A stretch of 64,000 bases of DNA from a virus. The notes under the pieces are model-generated. The model was not told the origin of the DNA, did no database searches, and saw only the letters and a list, made by a program, of their open reading frames with translations. The stretch lies in IMG/VR virus record IMGVR_UViG_3300042010_000040, positions 28,348-92,347 of that record; one strand, 5' to 3'. A program made the translations under genes and the position numbers. Shown here piece after piece: positions 21,824 to 32,931 of the stretch. Numbering within the stretch: position 1 is the first letter of the stretch; each line of letters starts with the position of its first letter.

Positions 21824-23278
21824 TTAAGCTCCTGCATTAAGGAAGGGGTTAGATTGAGTTAAGTTTGCGGATAGTAAGCCGGAGGAGAAGTTTGGAATTT
21901 GTAACTTCTGGGCAAGGGTGATAAATGCATCACTTGTGGCGTCCACTTGGTCATCCTTGTTCTTACGGCTCCCATCGAAACTCTCCAACTCATCAAAATA
22001 AGTGTCTGTCCAAGGCGCTTCGATATAATCAACAAGTCCGGCTTCAGCAGCTGCTGCGAATGGTTGGAATCTGATAATCTTGCTCTTATTAGAAGGACGC
22101 ATTCTAGCGTAGAAACCTTCCGACAAAAGTTCTTTAATCATCATTTGTCCGGCAGCCTTCCCAGCTTGGCCCGGTTCTTGTGGGAGTATAATTTGAGTAC
22201 CATCAGGATCAGATCCAGCAGTCTCAATTATCTTTGCCATAACTTCGCCAAATCTTGCACGAAACCTAACAACATCAATTACAATATAACGACCTTGTTT
22301 TGTCTTACCAATAAGGACGCCAGCAGTCCAGTCCGGATTTGGTAGTGCCTCACTAGGGATCGAACCGGCTATATCCCACGCACGACAGTAAGATATAATC
22401 TCTTTATCAAACAGATTAACTTTACCACAGAATTCTTTTTTCATGAATCCCGCTGCACTTTCCCTTACGAACCAATTGCCTTCCAGCAATCTTTTTCGTT
22501 CGGTGCCGCGAAGACCTTTGAGCCAAGCTACATACTTAGGGTTAACCTCTTCTACAATTTTATTGTCATAAACGTTAGCACTAATGAAGGTAAAAGATAG
22601 AGCATCTTGCTCTCTTACACCATATTCAGCTAGAAGTTGCTCTTTAGTATCAGCCCAAACAAAGTCACCATCCATGAAAGAAAAGTATCTCAACATCCCA
22701 TCTTTTGAACGGTCAGGAGTACCATCTTCTTGCAGGTAAGGCTCTACCCACTTACGAAGTCCATGATCTGCATCAGGGTTACATGTGATTTTAAGGTGGG
22801 GTTTGATCGAAGGACAAGAGGGGTTCCGCATACGAGACATGATATATTGTATCATATACATCGTATATTGGGTTCCCTCGTCTATATAGAAAAGATTTGC
22901 CTCAGACCCTTGCCAGTTTACATCAGCTTGGTCGTTTTCAAAGTGCTTTAAATATATTTCAGCACCACTAGCATGGAACACGAACTTACCATCCTTCGCA
23001 CGCCATGTATATTCATCTGGTTTATATGCTTGACTAAAGACACGTTTACATTTAGTAAGTAGACCACCCGGACCATTAAGCTGTGGTGTTGTACGACGGG
23101 TCATCACACCAATAAAGTTAGGGATATCCGTGTACTTCAAGAAGTCAATAACGCCAATTTCACTTTTTCCGCTCGCGGCTGCGCCACCGAATAAGGTTAC
23201 GTCAGCCTCCGAGGCGATATACATACTTTGGCGTAATGAACACGGGCCGGGTAACTTTTTCTGAACAACTTCAGCCAC
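21824..23278 (-). CDS. terL: Terminase large subunit
   Basis: Walker A GGAAASGKS, Walker B FYIDE, TCNP, nuclease RAWD and DDQVDA; GTG start after GAGGAGG. Confidence 0.93.
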   Translation of the reverse strand: MAEVVQKKLPGPCSLRQSMYIASEADVTLFGGAAASGKSEIGVIDFLKYTDIPNFIGVMTRRTTPQLNGPGGLLTKCKRVFSQAYKPDEYTWRAKDGKFVFHASGAEIYLKHFENDQADVNWQGSEANLFYIDEGTQYTMYMIQYIMSRMRNPSCPSIKPHLKITCNPDADHGLRKWVEPYLQEDGTPDRSKDGMLRYFSFMDGDFVWADTKEQLLAEYGVREQDALSFTFISANVYDNKIVEEVNPKYVAWLKGLRGTERKRLLEGNWFVRESAAGFMKKEFCGKVNLFDKEIISYCRAWDIAGSIPSEALPNPDWTAGVLIGKTKQGRYIVIDVVRFRARFGEVMAKIIETAGSDPDGTQIILPQEPGQAGKAAGQMMIKELLSEGFYARMRPSNKSKIIRFQPFAAAAEAGLVDYIEAPWTDTYFDELESFDGSRKNKDDQVDATSDAFITLAQKLQIPNFSSGLLSANLTQSNPFLNAGA

Positions 23279-24434
23279 TTGTGGCCTCCTCAATGTATTT
23301 AATAATCAAGTCTTTAGCTTCATTACTAAAGCATTCAGTGTAACCTGTGAACTTCTTAGTTGGTTTATAGTAATAACCAAGAGATTTTAATTCCCGCATA
23401 ATCTTTCTTTCAAGATTTGCAGAGTCTATATTAATCATCTCTTTTTCATATACAAAGTTATAGTCATAAATATCTTTTTGGCGTTTATAAACCTTTTCCC
23501 GACCTTTCTTATTACAAGTAATACCGAGTTTCAGGAAAGATTCCTTGCCGTCTGACATTTCAACAATATAAATTGAGCCAACTCTTTGACCAAGCTCTGT
23601 ATCTTCAGTGTACCGGTCAACCATATTATAAGTTGTTTTGTCGTAAGTACATTGGGCACAACCTTTACCTTTTACATGGCAAAGTGGACGTTGTTCAAAA
23701 ATACCATGCACATCACAAACAATTTTAACTTTAGTTTCTGTATTTACATATTCTGCAAAATCATATGAATACTTATCTTTGTGAGTTTGTTTTGCTCTTT
23801 CGATAAAGTACTCAGTCGTGTATTCTGAATAGCGTTGAAGCAAACTTCTCTCGACACCACACTTAGGACAACCATTACCATACATATGGGGTCCGGCAGA
23901 TTGCGTGAACTCACCATGTTCTGGACAGCCAATTACAACTTTCTGAGTGAAACCTTTAGTTAAGATAACTTTAGAATAGTCATATTTATGTTCATGGAAT
24001 TCCGCACTCTTAACTAGAAAGTCTTCTTGAGATAATCTCTGCTTTTCTACACTGCACTCTGGACATCCACGGGATACCAAGTGGTGTGCTACCGTCTGAC
24101 TGAAAACACCATGCTCTTTACAAATGATATCAATTTTACTTGTAGTTTTGGTTGTTGTTACTAAAGAGTAGTCAAACTTGTTTTGGTGTATTGCGGAGGC
24201 TTCAACAACAAAGTCCTCAATAGAGCGCTTGAGTGGAATAGACTCATGAACACAATGGCGACAACCTGCACCTTTCAGGTGAGAGTCAGTTCGCTGAACA
24301 AATATACCATGATCTTTACATTCAATATCAATGTAATATCTTGGACCTCTTGCTTCCCAAGCAACATATTTATATTTGCTGTCGTGTATGTTGTTTGCTT
24401 TTTCTACAAACTTTTCAAAATTAAATTCTGGCAA
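23271..24434 (-). CDS. Putative homing endonuclease (Zn-ribbon repeats plus GIY-YIG-like C-terminus)
   Basis: Four C..HG.F.Q...H..G.GC..C repeats; IYIV...KLGIT and GYTECF. Confidence 0.7.
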   Translation of the reverse strand: MPEFNFEKFVEKANNIHDSKYKYVAWEARGPRYYIDIECKDHGIFVQRTDSHLKGAGCRHCVHESIPLKRSIEDFVVEASAIHQNKFDYSLVTTTKTTSKIDIICKEHGVFSQTVAHHLVSRGCPECSVEKQRLSQEDFLVKSAEFHEHKYDYSKVILTKGFTQKVVIGCPEHGEFTQSAGPHMYGNGCPKCGVERSLLQRYSEYTTEYFIERAKQTHKDKYSYDFAEYVNTETKVKIVCDVHGIFEQRPLCHVKGKGCAQCTYDKTTYNMVDRYTEDTELGQRVGSIYIVEMSDGKESFLKLGITCNKKGREKVYKRQKDIYDYNFVYEKEMINIDSANLERKIMRELKSLGYYYKPTKKFTGYTECFSNEAKDLIIKYIEEATSG

Positions 24435-27172: not shown

Positions 27173-29869
27173 TTAAGATACAGAAGGCATAACGCGGAAG
27201 TTTGTACTCGTTCCGGCGACACCTTCCGCCACATTGACCCAGCCCATCGATCCACCTGCTGCAATTGTATTATTCCAAATCTTGTGACCTCTGGAATAAT
27301 AAAAACCATCGGTTGGAATTGCTGTTGCATAGTGTGGGGTGACAGAGACAAGCATCCACTCTGCTGTTGTACCTAGTTGTGGGATGATCCTTTCGAATAT
27401 CAAAGCACCACCGCTAGGGCAGGTGAGTTCAGGGACACCAGATGCACGTAGACTAATATTACCATTAGATCGTACAGTTACAGCACCGATTGCAAACAGT
27501 GTACGATGTTGTCCGGGGTTTGCCCAACCATGAAGATTTGAAATACGGATGGTCCTGTCAGCATTAGGGGACACATAGCAAGATGGATGGCCCTGCATAT
27601 CAACGTTACCAGAAGCATCAGTAACAACAATTTTGTGTTGTCTGTTGTTCTTAAACAGTGTCATTCCGGTAGTTTGCTTACTGTTCTGTCCCACGTATTC
27701 CCAAGACTGAACTTGGTCAAGGCCTACACTACTAGCGGCAACCATGTTGTCAACAGTACCGAGCATAAACCCACCGGGGCCAACCTGTGTGCGGCTGCTG
27801 ACACCTTCCCTGAAGATACCCCCATCACCAACACCACCTTGAATGAAAGTAGTTGCTACAGTTTGGGATGCGCTAACTTGGTAAGTGCCAGACTTTCCAG
27901 TTGAACCTGTCAACTGTTGGACTATGGTGGTTCCAGCAGTAACCCCAGTACCCGTTAATGACATACCCGCAGCGAACCTGCCAAGCATTGACACATCGTT
28001 CTCAATCGTAAGGGTAGTTCCTGCAATGGAGCCATTACCTCGACCCGCACCAACCGTACCATTGCCAGCATTAGCATGTCTGTTAGCTTGGAAGAATTGT
28101 TGGGCGCCAGTTTGAATGTCAAAACAGATACCTACAGATTCAAACCAAGTTTCCATTACGCTATTGTTACTGCAAGCACCAAGCTCCTTCCAACCCAATC
28201 GGGTTTTTTCACAAGCAAATTGCCCCATAGCCATTACACCAGTGGGGCAACGTGCAGCCTGACCAACACCGGCAATATCAGAAGTACTTTCACCATGACC
28301 ACTTGCATTGTCTGCAACTTCCGAGGGGGTTGGGTCAAATGTCAACAGTACACCGATATCTGATATATCATCTGGTGCTGTGCTCATACCGCCTGTGTAA
28401 CCGTTCTCAAGTTCAATTTGACCGTGTTGGCCAGTGAACATGTAGCCAATACTGCCAATAGCTCCACGGGCACCTACTTGACAATCCTGAAACTTAACAA
28501 ACTGGTTTGGGAGAAGTGAATGAGCATCGGTATATCCGGCTCTTGACCACACACATCTGTTGAAGTTAATGATTCTGACATTGAAGAATGTCGTGTGCCA
28601 CAACCCACCTTGAGTGTACCCAGCATCCCATTTTGCACGGGCATACAATCCCCACTGTGTTGGGTTGACAGGTGCCACGTTAAAGTCTGCTGTTGATGCT
28701 CCGCTTATAGTGAGGTTAGACCACCCGCATTCTGCAACAACGCCAGAGTCAATTTCCACCATCCCGTAAGTAAATCCGGGATCTGCTACAGGAAGAGCAA
28801 CAAACCCACCATTCCTCACGCCGGGGCCGTCAACTGGAACTCTGGAGCGGATGGTTAGCTTAGTTACGGGGGAGAAGCCAGACCCAAGTCTAACCTTACC
28901 CCCACCCTTACTGGACGCATATAGAGATGCTTTTTCACAAGCCAGAGTGTCATCTGTCACGCCGTCAGCCAGTCTACCAAACTCCTCCATCCAAATTTCA
29001 CCGGAAGTAATTCTTTGGAACCTGCCTGTTGGAACACCCACAACAGCGAAAGTATACCCACCATTATCCGGTTCTGTTGAAGCAGAGTCCCATATGAAAT
29101 CACCACCGCCGCGTGGGCCAAGATAAGGTACTCTTGTGGACCACCCAGCATGATAGGATGCGACTTTATAAGTAAGGCCAGTCTTTCTTGGTAGCGTCAA
29201 TAGGTCTGCAACAGAATCAACAGACACCACAGCACTGCCAACATTCAGTGCTGCACCATCGGCAGCAAGGTCTGCAATGCTTACTTTTGTACTTAGAAGA
29301 CCTTCTGTGTAAACAGCAGAAGCCTGTGCATCATTGGCGGAGTCTAAGGAGTCTTGAGCAGAAGCAGCGCTTTCAGCAGCTTTAGTAGTCGCTGTAACTG
29401 CACTTGATGCTGAAGACACAGCCGAAGTTTGACTTGCTGTGGCACTATTGGCAGAAGCTGTTGCAGAGTTAGCCGAATTCGTAGCACTTACCGCAGCTTG
29501 GCTTGCAGACGCAGCAGCAGCATTCTTACTAGCCAATGCACCAGCAGCATCAGCAGCCACTTGAGCTGCCAAGCCATCACTATGAGCTGTCTGATCAAGC
29601 ATCAACAATTCATTAATTGTTGTCTGCGTTGTATCATCTGTAATCTCAATATTACCAATGTTGGCATAAGATCTGTATTCTAAAGAAAATACACTAACAT
29701 GATACCAACCGTTTGGGACATCAATTTCATACTCACCATCTTCATCTGTCTTAAAGTCTTTTGTTACAAACATAAGAACTTGTTCAGAGGTGTTATTAGC
29801 TGTAATCCGAACAGAAGAGTTTTTGTATGGTTCGCCTGTAGGGGTGAGGAGGGTGCCTGAAAGAATCAT
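27173..29869 (-). CDS. Tailspike/fibre: Stf-like N-terminus, Ala/Ser linker, pectin-lyase-like beta-helix
   Basis: ILSGTLL..GEP...TD.DG.Y..DV..G.Y.VS N-terminus; GGGDFIWD; [10 protein letters not shown] beta-helix entry motif. Confidence 0.78.
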
Positions 29870-30144
29870 ATTGTCCCTACTGAGGTGGAGAGCTTGTTTT
29901 GTTTTTATAGAAAGATTTTCTTAAAGCCTATCAACAGGACAACCTGCAATACATTTAGAAATGATAATAGGACTTAAGAAAATCAACTCTTTAGAGGAGA
30001 GGGCTAAAGAGTTGATGAAAGAATGTCTACAGGAGAGGATAGACTTCTTTAAGATGCTGACGCGAGAGGAAGAGGAGGAGAACGTCAGCTTTGAAGGCAC
30101 CATTAATAAAGAATTTATACTTGGATGGTGTCGGGTGAAACTAA

Positions 30145-30254
30145 TTTGAGTGGTTGGTACTGAACTCCAACTTGCTGACGGCATATTCAGCAGCATACCC
30201 GCGTTGTGCTATTTCTAGTCTTACGCTGTGTATCAGTCTACACATTCACTCAAA
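30145..30254 (-). ncRNA. Candidate structured ncRNA (five-way junction with kissing loops)
   Basis: 8-bp closing stem enclosing four hairpins; GAAA tetraloop; ACTGA and TCAGT loops are complementary. Confidence 0.55.
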
Positions 30255-30256
30255 AC

Positions 30257-30338
30257 TGGAGCATACCTTGAAGGAATCTAACCTTCGACAACTTAAACGT
30301 ATTCTAGACTACAGAATAAGGAGCCAACATGAGGCAGC
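30257..30338 (-). ncRNA. tRNA-like / degenerate tRNA
   Basis: Acceptor-like GCTGCCT/AGGTA(T)GC plus TCCA end; T-arm GAAGG-TTAGATT-CCTTC; 6-bp arm with 7-nt loop; no proper D-arm. Confidence 0.4.
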
Positions 30339-30483
30339 ATAAAACTTTAGTTTGAATCTTTAAATTCATTACCCCGTATTAAAACCATTTGAGCATCAAT
30401 AAAGACACACATTGATAAGCTTGTTTAATTCCGAGGATTTCAGAACTCGTCAGTTCATTTCTTTAAGGGGCTCTAAGGCCTAC

Positions 30484-30573
30484 GAAAAGACATTATTATG
30501 TCTCTCGGAATTGGAGTATAAATACTTCCTTTATTTTTCCCTAAAAATTTCCGCTGGTCTTCCTTGACCCAGT
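30484..30573 (-). ncRNA. Candidate RsmY/RsmZ-like GGA-repeat sRNA
   Basis: Starts at the predicted TSS; UCAAGGAAGA hairpin; four GGA motifs in the first 50 nt; ends in hairpin plus UUUU. Confidence 0.45.
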
Positions 30574-30579
30574 AAAACA

Positions 30580-30608
30580 AGTATGAACTATAAAAGTTCT
30601 TTTGTCAA
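30580..30608 (-). promoter_or_regulatory. sigma70 promoter driving the non-coding region
   Basis: TTGACA-17-CATACT with AT-rich upstream sequence. Confidence 0.7.
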
Positions 30609-30632: not shown

Positions 30633-30779
30633 TTATTCAAAAATAGGCATCACTTTACGGAATTGTGTGTTTCCTTCGGTGATACTTTCGAATGCATACT
30701 CAAATTTAAAGTCTGGATTGTCTTCTTCCCACAAATCTTCTTCAAGTTCTTCGTCTTCAAGATAATCTTCAATTTTCAT
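30633..30779 (-). CDS. Small acidic protein (48 aa)
   Basis: AGGA SD, overlaps the HNH stop; MKIEDYLEDEELEEDLWEED... Confidence 0.55.
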   Translation of the reverse strand: MKIEDYLEDEELEEDLWEEDNPDFKFEYAFESITEGNTQFRKVMPIFE

Positions 30780-31554
30780 TTTTAATCCTATTCTTTCTCT
30801 TTTTGATTGCTATCTTTTCCCAGTCATCTGGGTGTTTAGCGTTCTTTTCTAAATTACATGTTGGACACAGCAGTTGAATATTCTCAGGCCAATTACTCCC
30901 ACCTAATGCAAGCGGCATAATATGATCTGCGTGGTAACTTGTGAATATTAAGTTAGCAAGACATCCTGTACACAGGCCATTTTGTTTAACAAATAAGTTA
31001 TGTATATCGTCTGCTGTAAACTCGCCTTCAGCGTTCTTTATTCTTGCACGTCTTCGGTGTGAATTAGCTTTGAGTGTGGCTTTATTTTCTAAAGTGTAGT
31101 TCTTAGCTCTTTCTTTGTAGCATTCAACGCAACCACCAGAGTCAGCATATTTCTTACTAAAATGTCCTTTTAATTCACAAGCAACATTATCGTAGTAATA
31201 CTTTTCTTCTACATATATGGCTTGTGCTCTGGTTTTAGGTAAGAAAGATAATTCCATTTCAAGAAGTTTTGTTGATTCGGGGCTATCTGGATCAGCAACA
31301 GACTTTAGGAAGTCCATTGTGTCTTTAGCATATTGAATTGCTTCTTTTGCTGTTTGTTTGCGTTTGTATTTCTCTTCAGCCCTATCGGAACTCTGTTCTC
31401 TAAATAAATCGTTTTGTTCGTGAATGCATTCAACACATTTAGTGGATTCAACCATTCTGTCTGCTATATGTCCATTCTTACATTCTTCACCAATAAAGTA
31501 ATATACCTCACCAGCTTTTCTTGCGTCACTTCTACTTATAAATTCCACTACCAC
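30769..31554 (-). CDS. HNH endonuclease
   Basis: CTGC...HADHIMPLALGGSNWPENIQLLCPTCN; N-terminal CxxGH..CVEC repeats. Confidence 0.88.
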   Translation of the reverse strand: MVVEFISRSDARKAGEVYYFIGEECKNGHIADRMVESTKCVECIHEQNDLFREQSSDRAEEKYKRKQTAKEAIQYAKDTMDFLKSVADPDSPESTKLLEMELSFLPKTRAQAIYVEEKYYYDNVACELKGHFSKKYADSGGCVECYKERAKNYTLENKATLKANSHRRRARIKNAEGEFTADDIHNLFVKQNGLCTGCLANLIFTSYHADHIMPLALGGSNWPENIQLLCPTCNLEKNAKHPDDWEKIAIKKRKNRIKNEN

Positions 31555-31683: not shown

Positions 31684-32931
31684 TCAAACAGATAACTTCT
31701 CCTCAATAGCAACACCATCTTCTTTCCAATTCAGACTGATAGGCACTAAATAATCCACACCAAACCTTTTACGAAAGCAATCACCCATAGTTTTTGATAG
31801 TAAGTCAGCATTCTTAGTCTGCACCAAAAATGAGTCATGCACTGGCAAGCATGAGATATTCTTTTCAATCATCACCTCTAGAATATCATTAGCCAAATGA
31901 CTATCAGCATTTTGTAAGATACGCCCCATGCTATCTGGGCAACAGAAGAAATCACCAAACTGTGGGTATTTATCATAGATAAGCAACATCACAGCCTTTG
32001 CACCGCCAAGGGAATACTTCTTTTTGTCTTCATCCTTAAGCAGATTAATCTCTTTACGAATAGCACCCTCTGCATCGTCGTCGTTATAGCAGTTAAACAT
32101 GATGTTAACAGCGAGCTTCACGATACGACGATCTACTGTGTTTGTTTCATCTTCAAGAATACCTGAGTAAACGTCTAGTGGAAGGTACTCGACATCAATA
32201 TCCTTGAGAGCAGCAGCTACACGAAAATGTAGATTGCAGAAGTCAATCTCACAAACTTCCTGACCTTCAATCTTAATATCAAGTCGTGCATCCGTATCTC
32301 GATTCTTAATTGCCAGCACATCAGCTTTATAAAATCGACCACCGTAAGCAAACGACTCATTGAAGATACGACAGTAGAAGTTTGTGAGAGTCTTACCACT
32401 ACCATCTTCAATACGAAATGATTCATTCATATGGTTGAGCTTACGAACAACCTCTTCCATTTTCTTGATATCTTGTGTGTTACGATAAGGGATTGAATTC
32501 TTGTCTTCATCTCGCAATTCAATAACCTTCACGGTGTCTTCATATGCTTTCATAGTTTCCTCAATCAATTCTTCCATGTGCCAGACTTCAATGAACTTCT
32601 GGGTTGGAGTGATGTAGCTAACTTCCCTCTTCTCTTTAATCTTATGTGGCTTACCCTTAACATTAACCACATAACCTTCATGTACTAAGTATTCAATACA
32701 ACGAATAACCTTACGAGAGGTAATATCTTTCTTACTACTTGTCTTTGTTCCTCCTGTGTCTCTACTATACACAAGCTTACATTGTTTCTTAAGACAAGCA
32801 ATCAGATTAGTGACAACCACACCTAACGTAGTAATGTCCTTATATCCATACACCCTAATAGCATTACTTACCTCTCTACTAACTTTAATATCATAGGTTA
32901 GTAGCTTAGTATTCAAGATTACATCTCCCAT
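31684..32931 (-). CDS. Minimal PolA / T7-RNAP-superfamily polymerase-like protein
   Basis: GGRFY, EIDFCNLHFR (motif A-like), RRIVKLAVN (motif B-like), LQNADS and PVHDSF (motif C-like) in the expected order; GAGGAGG SD. Confidence 0.65.
   Translation of the reverse strand: MGDVILNTKLLTYDIKVSREVSNAIRVYGYKDITTLGVVVTNLIACLKKQCKLVYSRDTGGTKTSSKKDITSRKVIRCIEYLVHEGYVVNVKGKPHKIKEKREVSYITPTQKFIEVWHMEELIEETMKAYEDTVKVIELRDEDKNSIPYRNTQDIKKMEEVVRKLNHMNESFRIEDGSGKTLTNFYCRIFNESFAYGGRFYKADVLAIKNRDTDARLDIKIEGQEVCEIDFCNLHFRVAAALKDIDVEYLPLDVYSGILEDETNTVDRRIVKLAVNIMFNCYNDDDAEGAIRKEINLLKDEDKKKYSLGGAKAVMLLIYDKYPQFGDFFCCPDSMGRILQNADSHLANDILEVMIEKNISCLPVHDSFLVQTKNADLLSKTMGDCFRKRFGVDYLVPISLNWKEDGVAIEEKLSV

What the first reader, a model, noticed from the sequence alone, without database searches (positions are those of the whole stretch)
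30145..30254. Unrecognised five-way-junction RNA with a kissing-loop interaction
Seen on the minus strand: closing stem TTTGAGTG/CACTCAAA encloses four hairpins: GTGTA-gactga-TACAC; GCGT..CTA-GAAA-TAG..ACGC (GNRA tetraloop); TGCTGA/TCAGCA; GTTGG-agttcagta-CCAAC. Loop 1 ACTGA is complementary to loop 4 TCAGT. Most of the 110 nt is accounted for by pairing, and it starts right after the CCA of the tRNA-like element. I do not recognise it as a known family.
Basis: seen in the sequence. Interest (0 to 1): 0.8.

Follow-up and report, generated by a model that had tools for sequence, protein, structure and literature searches.

The report
Orphan folded-RNA cassette in phage tRNA slot
The 110-base fold is really there and sits as a swappable unit in the place where related phages keep tRNA genes. 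It has no relatives and folds no better than chance, so it is at most an unproven small phage RNA like the long-known T4 "species 1 and 2" RNAs.

Summary

STATISTICS ARE WEAK:
- The opposite strand folds as well (z -3.05). All 31 pairs are Watson-Crick.
- Folds of this type are as frequent in shuffled sequence (13 real against 7-12).
- The 5-nt loop1/loop4 complement has P about 0.01-0.03.

NO KNOWN FAMILY AND NO HOMOLOGUE: nothing in Rfam, no tRNA call, and nothing in ten related phage genomes, GenBank phages, or pattern scans of viral and prokaryote contigs. Covariation cannot be tested.

WHAT LIFTS IT ABOVE CHANCE IS CONTEXT:
- It lies in an ORF-free unit of about 600 nt running from a promoter-like site to a terminator-like hairpin in a 92-kb phage.
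- It sits between a D-armless tRNA-like element ending in CCA and a conserved CU-rich three-hairpin RNA.
- Relatives have tRNA genes there, with CCA abutting GTTTCAC.
- Two near-identical backgrounds carry a different insert in exactly this slot. One of these (L028) is also closed by an 8-bp stem and folds well only on the transcribed strand.

BEST READING (about 0.45): an optional structured small-RNA module of a phage tRNA-type operon with the connectivity of a long-variable-arm tRNA. The closest analogues are T4 rnaC/rnaD and PAK_P3 sRNA2. This scan has noted similar cassette-like RNA modules in other phages' tRNA arrays. Interest is low to moderate.

The parts
30580..30608 (-). Sigma-70-like promoter TTGACA-17-CATACT at the head of the ORF-free unit
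   Evidence: 10 of 12 matches. A near-identical promoter word is seen in relative L003. This is a consensus match only; no transcript data.
30427..30512 (-). Sibling closed multibranch module: 9-bp closing stem AAUUCCGAG/CUCGGAAUU around three hairpins
   Evidence: Folds. The variant contig in run X7 changes pair A30455-U30444 to G-C and shifts hairpin B by one register while keeping 3 bp (my reading of tables 3 and 4).
30257..30338 (-). tRNA-like element: bulged 7-bp acceptor, no D arm, T arm GAAGG-UUAGAUU-CCUUC, discriminator U, encoded CCA
   Evidence: Fold (z only -0.9). It is 100% identical in the X7 contig, has 1 substitution in L028, and has a homologous element at L002:8646-8727. It is not called by ARAGORN or by Rfam tRNA.
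30145..30254 (-). The finding: 110-nt closed five-way junction. Closing stem 30254-30247/30152-30145; H1 30244-30227; H2 with GAAA 30226-30201; J2/3 GGGUAUGC 30200-30193; H3 30192-30173; H4 30171-30153
   Evidence: MFE equals centroid. Single copy in the genome. Absent from L002, L003, L004 and L023. Replaced by other sequence in X7 and in L028.
30142..30144 (-). AU-rich linker UUA. Together with the following GUUU it repeats the (A)GUUU that follows the upstream CCA
   Evidence: Read directly from the sequence. The inference is either a single-stranded processing linker (RNase E type) or a target-site-duplication-like repeat.
29976..30141 (-). Conserved CU-rich three-hairpin RNA module starting GUUUCACCC. 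Its last hairpin (30014-29984) plus U tract (29983-29976) looks like an intrinsic terminator
   Evidence: nhmmer homology to L002, L003 and L023. The pattern scan shows it directly after the CCA of the last tRNA in relatives. Weak full-length Rfam ar14 match: 30.2 bits, E 0.0025, below the gathering score of 58.8.
30769..31554 (-). HNH endonuclease gene (261 aa) immediately upstream of the ncRNA unit
   Evidence: Pfam HNH 1.5e-10; phrog_1035 8e-24. Absent at this place in L002, L003, L004 and L028.
31684..32931 (-).
Evidence: 82-98% identical in L002-L004.
27173..29869 (-). Tail-fibre gene that follows the ncRNA unit
   Evidence: Pfam phage_tail_N 1.3e-11 and PHROG tail-fibre families.

Best explanation
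The 110-nt element is one optional, self-contained structured-RNA module in a phage polycistronic 'tRNA-type' non-coding operon.

OPERON LAYOUT: promoter at 30608-30580; 5' structured modules; a D-armless tRNA-like element ending in CCA; this element; a CU-rich three-hairpin RNA with a terminator.

INFERRED MECHANISM:
- The operon is transcribed as one precursor.
- The modules are separated at the short AU-rich single-stranded linkers (CCA-GU|UUUG... and ...CAAA-UUA-GUUU) by the host enzymes that mature tRNA operons. These would be RNase E at the linkers, and possibly RNase P at the 12-13-bp stack of closing stem plus H4.
- The released roughly 110-nt RNA folds with the connectivity of a long-variable-arm tRNA. 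The closing stem stacks on the abutting 5-bp H4. H1 stacks on the abutting H2. Loop 1 pairs with loop 4 where a tRNA has its D-loop/T-loop elbow.
- It cannot decode, because it has a GAAA tetraloop, no anticodon loop and no CCA. It would therefore act as a stable tRNA-shaped RNA that binds or decoys some tRNA-recognising host or phage factor, as is suspected for T4 rnaC/rnaD and PAK_P3 sRNA2.

SHOWN HERE: the fold, the position, the cassette boundaries, the absence from relatives, and the absence of a family match.

INFERRED ONLY: transcription, processing, the tertiary contact and the function.
For: (1) The element lies in a stretch with no supported gene, on the strand of all neighbouring genes, between a promoter-like site and a terminator-like hairpin. 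The only overlapping ORF (29921-30196, 91 aa) has no family hit. It runs through a module that carries no ORF of at least 50 aa in L002.

(2) Relatives hold tRNA-Asn, Thr, Arg, Gly, Ser and Pro genes in the same slot. The last CCA there directly abuts GTTTCAC. This phage has no tRNA at all at E<=10.

(3) The swapped segment coincides with the fold.
- An X7 contig is 100% identical over 30251-30350 and about 96% identical over 29950-30134. It has 120 other letters in place of 30135-30250.
- L028 shares the tRNA-like element and the word CCAGTTTTG, then carries a different 136-nt insert. That insert is again closed by 8 bp (TTGCAAGC/GCTTGCAA) before GTTTCAC.
- The cassette-specific parts of the two closing stems (AGUG/CACU and CAAGC/GCUUG) are complementary in both. 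My estimate is that this is unlikely by chance (about 1e-4 or less).

(4) The L028 cassette folds to -45.9 kcal/mol (z -3.0) on the transcribed strand, against -35.7 (z -0.5) on the other. It has 6 G-U among 43 pairs. This is an RNA-type, strand-specific signal for a sister occupant of the slot.

(5) A sibling module in the same unit shows one A-U to G-C double change in the X7 variant.

(6) The connectivity (linkers of 2, 0, 8, 1 and 0 nt), a 7-8-bp closing stem, a 5-bp last hairpin abutting it, and a G-UUCA word in that loop resemble a class II tRNA.

(7) Precedent.
- T4 has homing endonuclease segB, then tRNA-Arg, then rnaD (119 nt), then rnaC (139 nt).
- rnaC folds as a closed multibranch with a T arm next to its closing stem, z -4.6.
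- PAK_P3 sRNA2 is an abundant late RNA of about 100 nt between phage tRNAs, with a T-loop-like 11-mer (PMC4933390).
Against: - No homologue was found anywhere, so there is no covariation.
- Thermodynamic signal is within chance for this genome.
- The opposite strand folds as well, and there are no G-U pairs.
- In the full transcript the closing stem has probability of only 0.39.
- There is no significant sequence similarity to any tRNA, to the neighbouring tRNA-like element, to the L028 cassette or to T4 rnaC/rnaD.
- The Rfam tRNA model gives nothing even at E<=10.
- The L028 cassette has a different interior, a four-way junction with 9 unpaired nt before its closing stem. Its support therefore transfers to the slot, not to this fold.
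Confidence: 0.45

Rival explanations
1. The fold is a chance result in cassette filler. The slot between the tRNA-like element and the CU-rich RNA is a recombination hot spot, perhaps driven by the neighbouring homing endonuclease. It accumulates unrelated sequence, and this particular 110 nt has no function of its own. Its neat fold is what one finds when 64 kb is read for pretty structures.
For: - Closed folds with at least 4 hairpins are as common in shuffled sequence (13 against 7-12).
- After GC correction the element ranks only in the top 2.8% of windows.
- It is an orphan in every search.
- Three different occupants, or none, are found in close relatives.
Against: - The boundaries defined by comparison coincide with perfect inverted termini in two independent occupants.
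- The sister occupant has strand-specific stability.
- The sequence is kept unchanged in contigs from several rhizosphere studies (X3-X5). These may, however, be one phage population.
Confidence: 0.28
2. It is a DNA-level element: a miniature palindromic insertion (MITE-like, or a homing or recombination scar) that landed at the GTTT following the tRNA-like CCA. The inverted repeats serve DNA transactions rather than RNA folding.
For: - Terminal inverted repeats of 8 bp.
- Flanking direct repeat (A)GTTT ... (A)GTTT, against a single CCAGTTTCAC in relatives.
- All 31 pairs are Watson-Crick, and both strands fold equally.
- An HNH endonuclease gene lies 500 nt upstream, only in this phage.
Against: - It is single-copy in the genome.
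- No other copy was found in ten related genomes or in viral, prokaryote or GenBank-phage searches. That is unlike a mobile repeat family.
- The second occupant of the same site is strand-asymmetric.
- The GTTT could simply be the conserved single-stranded linker that starts each module.
Confidence: 0.2
3. It is protein-coding sequence: the 5' end of ORF 29921-30196 (91 aa) on the minus strand, or ORF 30154-30342 (62 aa) on the plus strand.
For: Both ORFs exist in the mechanical ORF list.
Against: - There are no Pfam or PHROG hits.
- The 91-aa frame runs through the CU-rich module, which is conserved as hairpins with length changes. That module has no ORF of at least 50 aa in L002.
- I saw no Shine-Dalgarno sequence before ATG 30196.
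Confidence: 0.03

Closest known systems
Bacteriophage T4 small stable RNAs rnaC (species 1, 139 nt) and rnaD (species 2, 119 nt)
   Same: - RNAs of about 110-140 nt with unknown function, lying at the distal end of a phage tRNA cluster within a few nt of the preceding tRNA.
- A homing endonuclease gene (segB) sits in the cluster.
- rnaC folds as a closed multibranch whose last hairpin, next to the closing stem, is a T arm.
   Different: - No sequence similarity.
- rnaC carries a canonical GGUUCGAAUCC T arm and a strong fold (z -4.6). This element has a 9-nt loop and z -2.5.
- The T4 RNAs are proven stable transcripts; this one is not.
Pseudomonas phage PAK_P3 sRNA2 (PMC4933390)
   Same: - An RNA of about 100 nt in the intergenic space between phage tRNA genes of a myovirus whose large terminase is the nearest cultured match to this phage's (about 50% identity).
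- It carries a tRNA T-loop-like word.
- Its function is unknown.
   Different: - sRNA2 is experimentally seen as abundant late in infection.
- I did not compare sequences directly. blastn of the region against GenBank phages found nothing.
Class II (long-variable-arm) tRNA
   Same: - 7-8-bp closing stem, and a 2-nt linker to the first hairpin.
- First and second hairpins abut each other.
- An extra arm is present.
- A 5-bp last hairpin abuts the closing stem.
- There is complementarity between the first and last loops, where a tRNA has its elbow.
- The element occupies a tRNA slot.
   Different: - Fails ARAGORN, and fails Rfam tRNA even at E<=10.
- The central arm ends in a GAAA tetraloop.
- The first stem is 6 bp with a 6-nt loop.
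- The T-like loop is 9 nt.
- AUUA stands in place of NCCA.
- No significant similarity to 33 distinct tRNAs collected by ARAGORN from all loci held (relatives, unrelated scan hits and phage T4).
Bacterial and phage YrlA-type Y RNAs (PMC4201824)
   Same: Non-coding RNAs of about 100 nt with a tRNA-like multibranch domain and a D/T-loop contact. Some are cut by RNase P and receive CCA.
   Different: YrlA genes lie next to an Rsr/Ro60 (TROVE) gene and keep canonical D and T loops. This phage has no TROVE gene and no Rfam match.

Membership tests
Any Rfam 15 family | Covariance-model score at or above the gathering threshold | tested here: not met
   No hit in the whole window at gathering score. 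At E<=10, only noise on the wrong strand (veev_FSE and a lncRNA fragment) overlaps the element.
tRNA (RF00005 / ARAGORN) | Recognised by the tRNA covariance model or by ARAGORN | tested here: not met
   ARAGORN finds no gene. Even at 70% threshold it calls nothing on this strand at these coordinates. RF00005 gives no match at E<=10 in the whole phage genome.
tRNA (RF00005 / ARAGORN) | 7-nt anticodon loop on a 5-bp stem; 7-nt T loop UUCRANY; 3' discriminator plus CCA or a site for its addition | tested here: not met
   The central arm ends in GAAA. H3 has an 8-nt loop. H4 has the 9-nt loop AGUUCAGUA. The closing stem is followed by UUA-GUUU.
tRNA (RF00005 / ARAGORN) | 7-bp acceptor stacked on a 5-bp T stem with no spacer; 2-nt linker to the D arm | tested here: met
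   The dot-bracket structure shows a 7-8-bp closing stem, the linker AA, and a 5-bp H4 directly abutting the 3' strand.
Phage tRNA-cluster small stable RNAs (T4 rnaC/rnaD type) | Encoded inside or at the end of a phage tRNA operon, on the same strand, a few nt from the preceding tRNA 3' end | tested here: met
   The element starts 2 nt after the CCA of a tRNA-like element. Relatives have true tRNAs there. T4 layout.
Phage tRNA-cluster small stable RNAs (T4 rnaC/rnaD type) | Accumulates as a discrete stable RNA processed from the tRNA precursor | not testable with these tools
   No RNA run was listed for this sequence. All runs laid were DNA contigs.
YrlA / Y RNA | Gene adjacent to an Rsr/Ro60 (TROVE) gene; canonical T and D loops | tested here: not met
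   PF05731 is absent from the complete phage record. There is no Rfam match.
MITE-like palindromic insertion | Terminal inverted repeats and a target-site duplication | tested here: inconclusive
   The 8-bp inverted termini are present. (A)GTTT is repeated on both sides, against one copy in relatives. The same word could be a conserved linker.
MITE-like palindromic insertion | Multiple dispersed copies | tested here: not met
   One copy in the genome. None in ten related genomes or in the collection scans.
Kissing-loop tertiary contact | Loop-loop complementarity maintained by covariation | not testable with these tools
   A 5-nt Watson-Crick complement is present (P 0.008-0.03). There are no homologues to test.

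The most novel reading that the evidence does not exclude
The slot right after the tRNA-like CCA is a hypervariable RNA-cassette site. There are at least three unrelated occupants in near-identical backgrounds, and none in others. Each occupant is closed by its own stem on a shared UUUG/CAAA frame. Under this reading the occupants are interchangeable tRNA-shaped decoys, selected in an arms race with host tRNA-targeting or RNA-sensing defences, or they are partners of the adjacent mini polymerase. This element would then be one allele of a new class of phage counter-defence RNAs.
Probability: 0.1. Interest if true: 0.65.

Novelty: new member of a known kind. Interest (0 to 1): 0.3.

Why it matters
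If real, it adds to growing evidence, from T4 rnaC/rnaD and PAK_P3 sRNA2 and from several earlier notes of this scan on other phages, that phage tRNA operons carry exchangeable, tRNA-shaped non-decoding RNAs of unknown function. This phage is a sharp case. It has lost every canonical tRNA from the slot and keeps only look-alikes. A cloned 600-nt unit would therefore be a clean substrate for asking what such RNAs do. On its own, however, this element is an orphan with chance-level folding statistics, so it does not open a question that better-supported modules could not open.

Tried and rejected
SEARCHES FOR A KNOWN FAMILY
- Rfam at gathering score and at E<=10: nothing.
- ARAGORN at default and relaxed thresholds: nothing on this strand.

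SEARCHES FOR HOMOLOGUES
- blastn against GenBank phages with 801-nt and 121-nt queries: only 30-nt noise.
- A single-sequence covariance model R1 over 26 loci and ten related phage records: only the element itself.
- Exact and loop-only degenerate pattern scans of viral contigs and prokaryote genomes: nothing.
- A cassette-frame pattern: 24 hits, which on inspection were unrelated sequence without closing stems, most inside what looks like coding sequence.
- Scans for the tRNA-like 3' end: only L028 (the same contig in two collections) and L002's contig.
- tblastn with the anchor protein against GenBank phages: only distant relatives (<=35% identity), which are no use for this slot.

EXPRESSION
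- No RNA holder was listed. All runs laid were DNA contigs.

BLOCKED STEPS
- The 120 letters that replace the element in run X7 are not printed by the tool and could not be retrieved.
- I tried to fetch more slot alleles through homologues of the anchor protein (one search found 220).

IDEAS TESTED AND DROPPED
- Sequence similarity of the element to tRNAs, the neighbouring tRNA-like element, the L028 cassette and T4 rnaC/rnaD is within shuffle expectation. MAFFT and nhmmer lining H4 up with the T arms of relatives is therefore only suggestive.
- I considered and dropped these:
  - hammerhead or other small ribozyme: no core motifs by eye, no Rfam hit
  - integron attC: no RYYYAAC/GTTRRRY
  - tmRNA: ARAGORN found none
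  - HEARO/IscB guide RNA: the HNH protein has only an HNH domain, and there is no Rfam hit
  - group I intron: the flanking genes are intact, and there is no Rfam hit here

Full report
WHAT IS THERE

The window is part of a complete 92-kb IMG/VR phage record. Its large terminase is about 50% identical to those of Pseudomonas PAK_P1/KPP10-like myophages. Near-identical DNA is found in rhizosphere metagenomes.

On the minus strand the order of features is as follows:
- a conserved 415-aa gene (phrog_4756)
- an HNH endonuclease gene (30769-31554)
- a sigma-70-like promoter (30608-30580)
- about 600 nt without a supported ORF
- the tail-fibre gene (29869-27173)

The finding lies in the middle of the ORF-free stretch.

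THE OBSERVATION

Together they are the MFE and the centroid structure of 30145-30254(-): -32.0 kcal/mol, z -2.53. The fold survives in a 501-nt context. Loop 1 (ACUGA) and loop 4 (UCAGU) are complementary.

IS THE FOLD MORE THAN CHANCE?

On folding criteria, no.
- The reverse complement folds slightly better (z -3.05).
- All 31 pairs are Watson-Crick.
- The GC-corrected energy is only in the top 2.8% of 110-nt windows here.
- I took every 7-mer inverted repeat 90-140 nt apart and asked how often the enclosed RNA keeps that closing stem, has at least four hairpins and reaches -30 kcal/mol. The real strand gave 13 cases. Four block dinucleotide shuffles gave 7-12.
- The loop-loop complement has P 0.008 for that pair and 0.03 for any pair.
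- In the whole transcript the closing stem has a probability of only 0.39.

NO FAMILY AND NO RELATIVES

- Rfam gives nothing at gathering score or at E<=10.
- ARAGORN finds nothing.
- A single-sequence covariance model finds only the element itself in 26 loci and ten related phage genomes.
- GenBank phages have no match.
- Exact and loop-only pattern scans of viral and prokaryote collections are empty.
- The element is single-copy in its own genome.

CONTEXT

Context is the only real argument for the element. The argument has six steps.

1. The conserved downstream module. Relatives found through the 415-aa protein (L002-L004) and through a pattern in the downstream module (L011-L027) carry tRNA genes in the same slot: Asn, Thr, Arg, Gly, Ser and Pro. 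A conserved RNA-like module follows them. It begins GTTTCACCC and carries three hairpins with CU-rich loops. In L011, L013, L017/L003, L019/L002, L023 and L027 the last tRNA or tRNA-like CCA is followed immediately by GTTTCAC.

2. How the window differs. Here the tRNA-like element ends ...GCTCCA. It is followed by GT, the 110-nt element, TTA and then GTTTCACCC. The element is thus an extra module at the position where a tRNA 3' end meets the CU-rich RNA. This phage has no canonical tRNA at all.

3. First alternative occupant: X7. Contigs from other samples show that the unit is exchanged as a block. In run X7 one 950-nt contig matches 30251-30350 perfectly and 29950-30134 at about 96%. It has 120 unrelated letters in place of 30135-30250.

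4. Second alternative occupant: L028.
- L028 has the same tRNA-like element (one substitution) and the same CCAGTTTTG.
- It then carries a different 136-nt sequence closed by its own 8-bp stem, followed by CTT-GTTTCAC.
- That insert is much more stable on the transcribed strand (-45.9, z -3.0) than on the other (-35.7, z -0.5). It has 6 G-U pairs.

5. What the two closing stems show. Two independent occupants each have cassette-specific complementary termini extending a shared UUUG/CAAA frame. That is hard to get by chance. One occupant behaves like an RNA structure. This supports the view that the slot holds closed RNA modules. It does not prove that this particular interior fold matters, because the two interiors are unrelated and have different junction types.

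6. A sibling module. A sibling module of the same unit (30512-30427) shows an A-U to G-C double change in the X7 variant. This is a small hint that the unit is under RNA-level constraint.

SHAPE

The linker lengths around the junction are 2, 0, 8, 1 and 0 nt. The junction has these features:
- a 7-8-bp closing stem
- a first hairpin abutting the second
- an extra arm
- a 5-bp last hairpin abutting the closing stem
- a contact between the first and last loops

This is the connectivity of a long-variable-arm tRNA. nhmmer and MAFFT also line H4 and the 3' strand up with the T arm and acceptor of the relatives' tRNAs, in register with GTTTCAC.

It is nevertheless not a tRNA by any test:
- no covariance-model or ARAGORN signal
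- a GAAA tetraloop on the central arm
- a 9-nt last loop
- AUUA where NCCA would be
- sequence similarity to 33 distinct tRNAs within shuffle expectation

I therefore describe it as tRNA-shaped, not as a tRNA.

COMPARISON WITH KNOWN SYSTEMS

- T4. The tRNA cluster ends with segB (a homing endonuclease), then tRNA-Arg, rnaD (119 nt) and rnaC (139 nt), with gaps of 1 and 6 nt. rnaC folds as a closed multibranch with a T arm next to the closing stem. Both are stable RNAs whose function is still unknown, according to PMC4933390.
- PAK_P3. The same paper reports sRNA2, an abundant late RNA of about 100 nt between phage tRNAs, with a T-loop-like 11-mer.
- YrlA Y RNAs are tRNA mimics too. They go with a Ro60 gene, which this phage lacks.
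- Earlier notes of this scan describe cassette-like structured RNA modules in the tRNA arrays of several other phages. I take them as agreement, not as evidence.

VERDICT

- The interpretation as an unrecognised RNA is partly supported: the element is a discrete unit in an RNA operon and matches no family.
- There is no statistical or evolutionary support for the specific five-way junction or for the kissing loop.
- Best reading (about 0.45): an optional tRNA-shaped small RNA module, released by tRNA-processing nucleases, with a possible decoy function.
- Rivals: a chance fold in recombinational filler (about 0.28), a DNA-level palindromic insertion (about 0.2), and coding sequence (about 0.03).

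- No RNA runs were listed.

Noticed in passing
window 29976-30141 (-): Conserved RNA-like module starting GUUUCACCC, with three hairpins whose loops are CU-rich (CUCCUC-type, anti-Shine-Dalgarno-like). The last hairpin plus a U tract looks like a terminator. It is homologous in L002, L003, L004, L011, L013, L021, L023 and L027, where it directly follows the last tRNA. It gives a weak full-length match to Rfam ar14 (30 bits, E 0.0025, below gathering).
   Followed up: partly
window 30257-30338 (-); L002:8646-8727; L028:1660-1740: Non-canonical tRNA-like element: bulged acceptor, no D arm, T loop UU(A/G)GAUU, encoded CCA. It is conserved in at least three phages. ARAGORN and Rfam do not recognise it.
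   Followed up: partly
whole phage record G000: This complete 92-kb phage has no canonical tRNA gene (RF00005 at E<=10, and ARAGORN). Its relatives carry 1-5 tRNAs in the equivalent slot.
   Followed up: yes
window 30427-30512 (-): 86-nt closed three-hairpin module with a 9-bp closing stem. The variant contig of run X7 carries 12 substitutions across 30363-30523, including an A-U to G-C double change in one hairpin of this module and a register-shifted second hairpin.
   Followed up: partly
window 21824-24434 (-): The large terminase ORF (489 aa) aligns only from position 146 of its PHROG profile. It is preceded by, and overlaps, a 387-aa endonuclease ORF (phrog_681/559, T5orf172-like). This could be a homing-endonuclease insertion or a split terminase.
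   Followed up: no
L002:8140-8417 and L028:1280-1640: A conserved non-coding stretch of about 300 nt behind a strong promoter and ahead of the tRNAs. It begins ATTTCCTTGGTT.TATGGAACAACC, has no Rfam match and differs from the 5' domain of the window.
   Followed up: no
L013 (last ~85 nt before GTTTCAC), L021, L027: Further odd tRNA-like modules with a 7-bp acceptor and CCA that ARAGORN does not call. Two examples are a D-armless tRNA-Arg(UCU)-like in L021 and a long-extra-arm UCU form in L027.
   Followed up: no
L021:8381-8607: Group I intron (Rfam RF00028, 71.5 bits) in a related phage.
   Followed up: no
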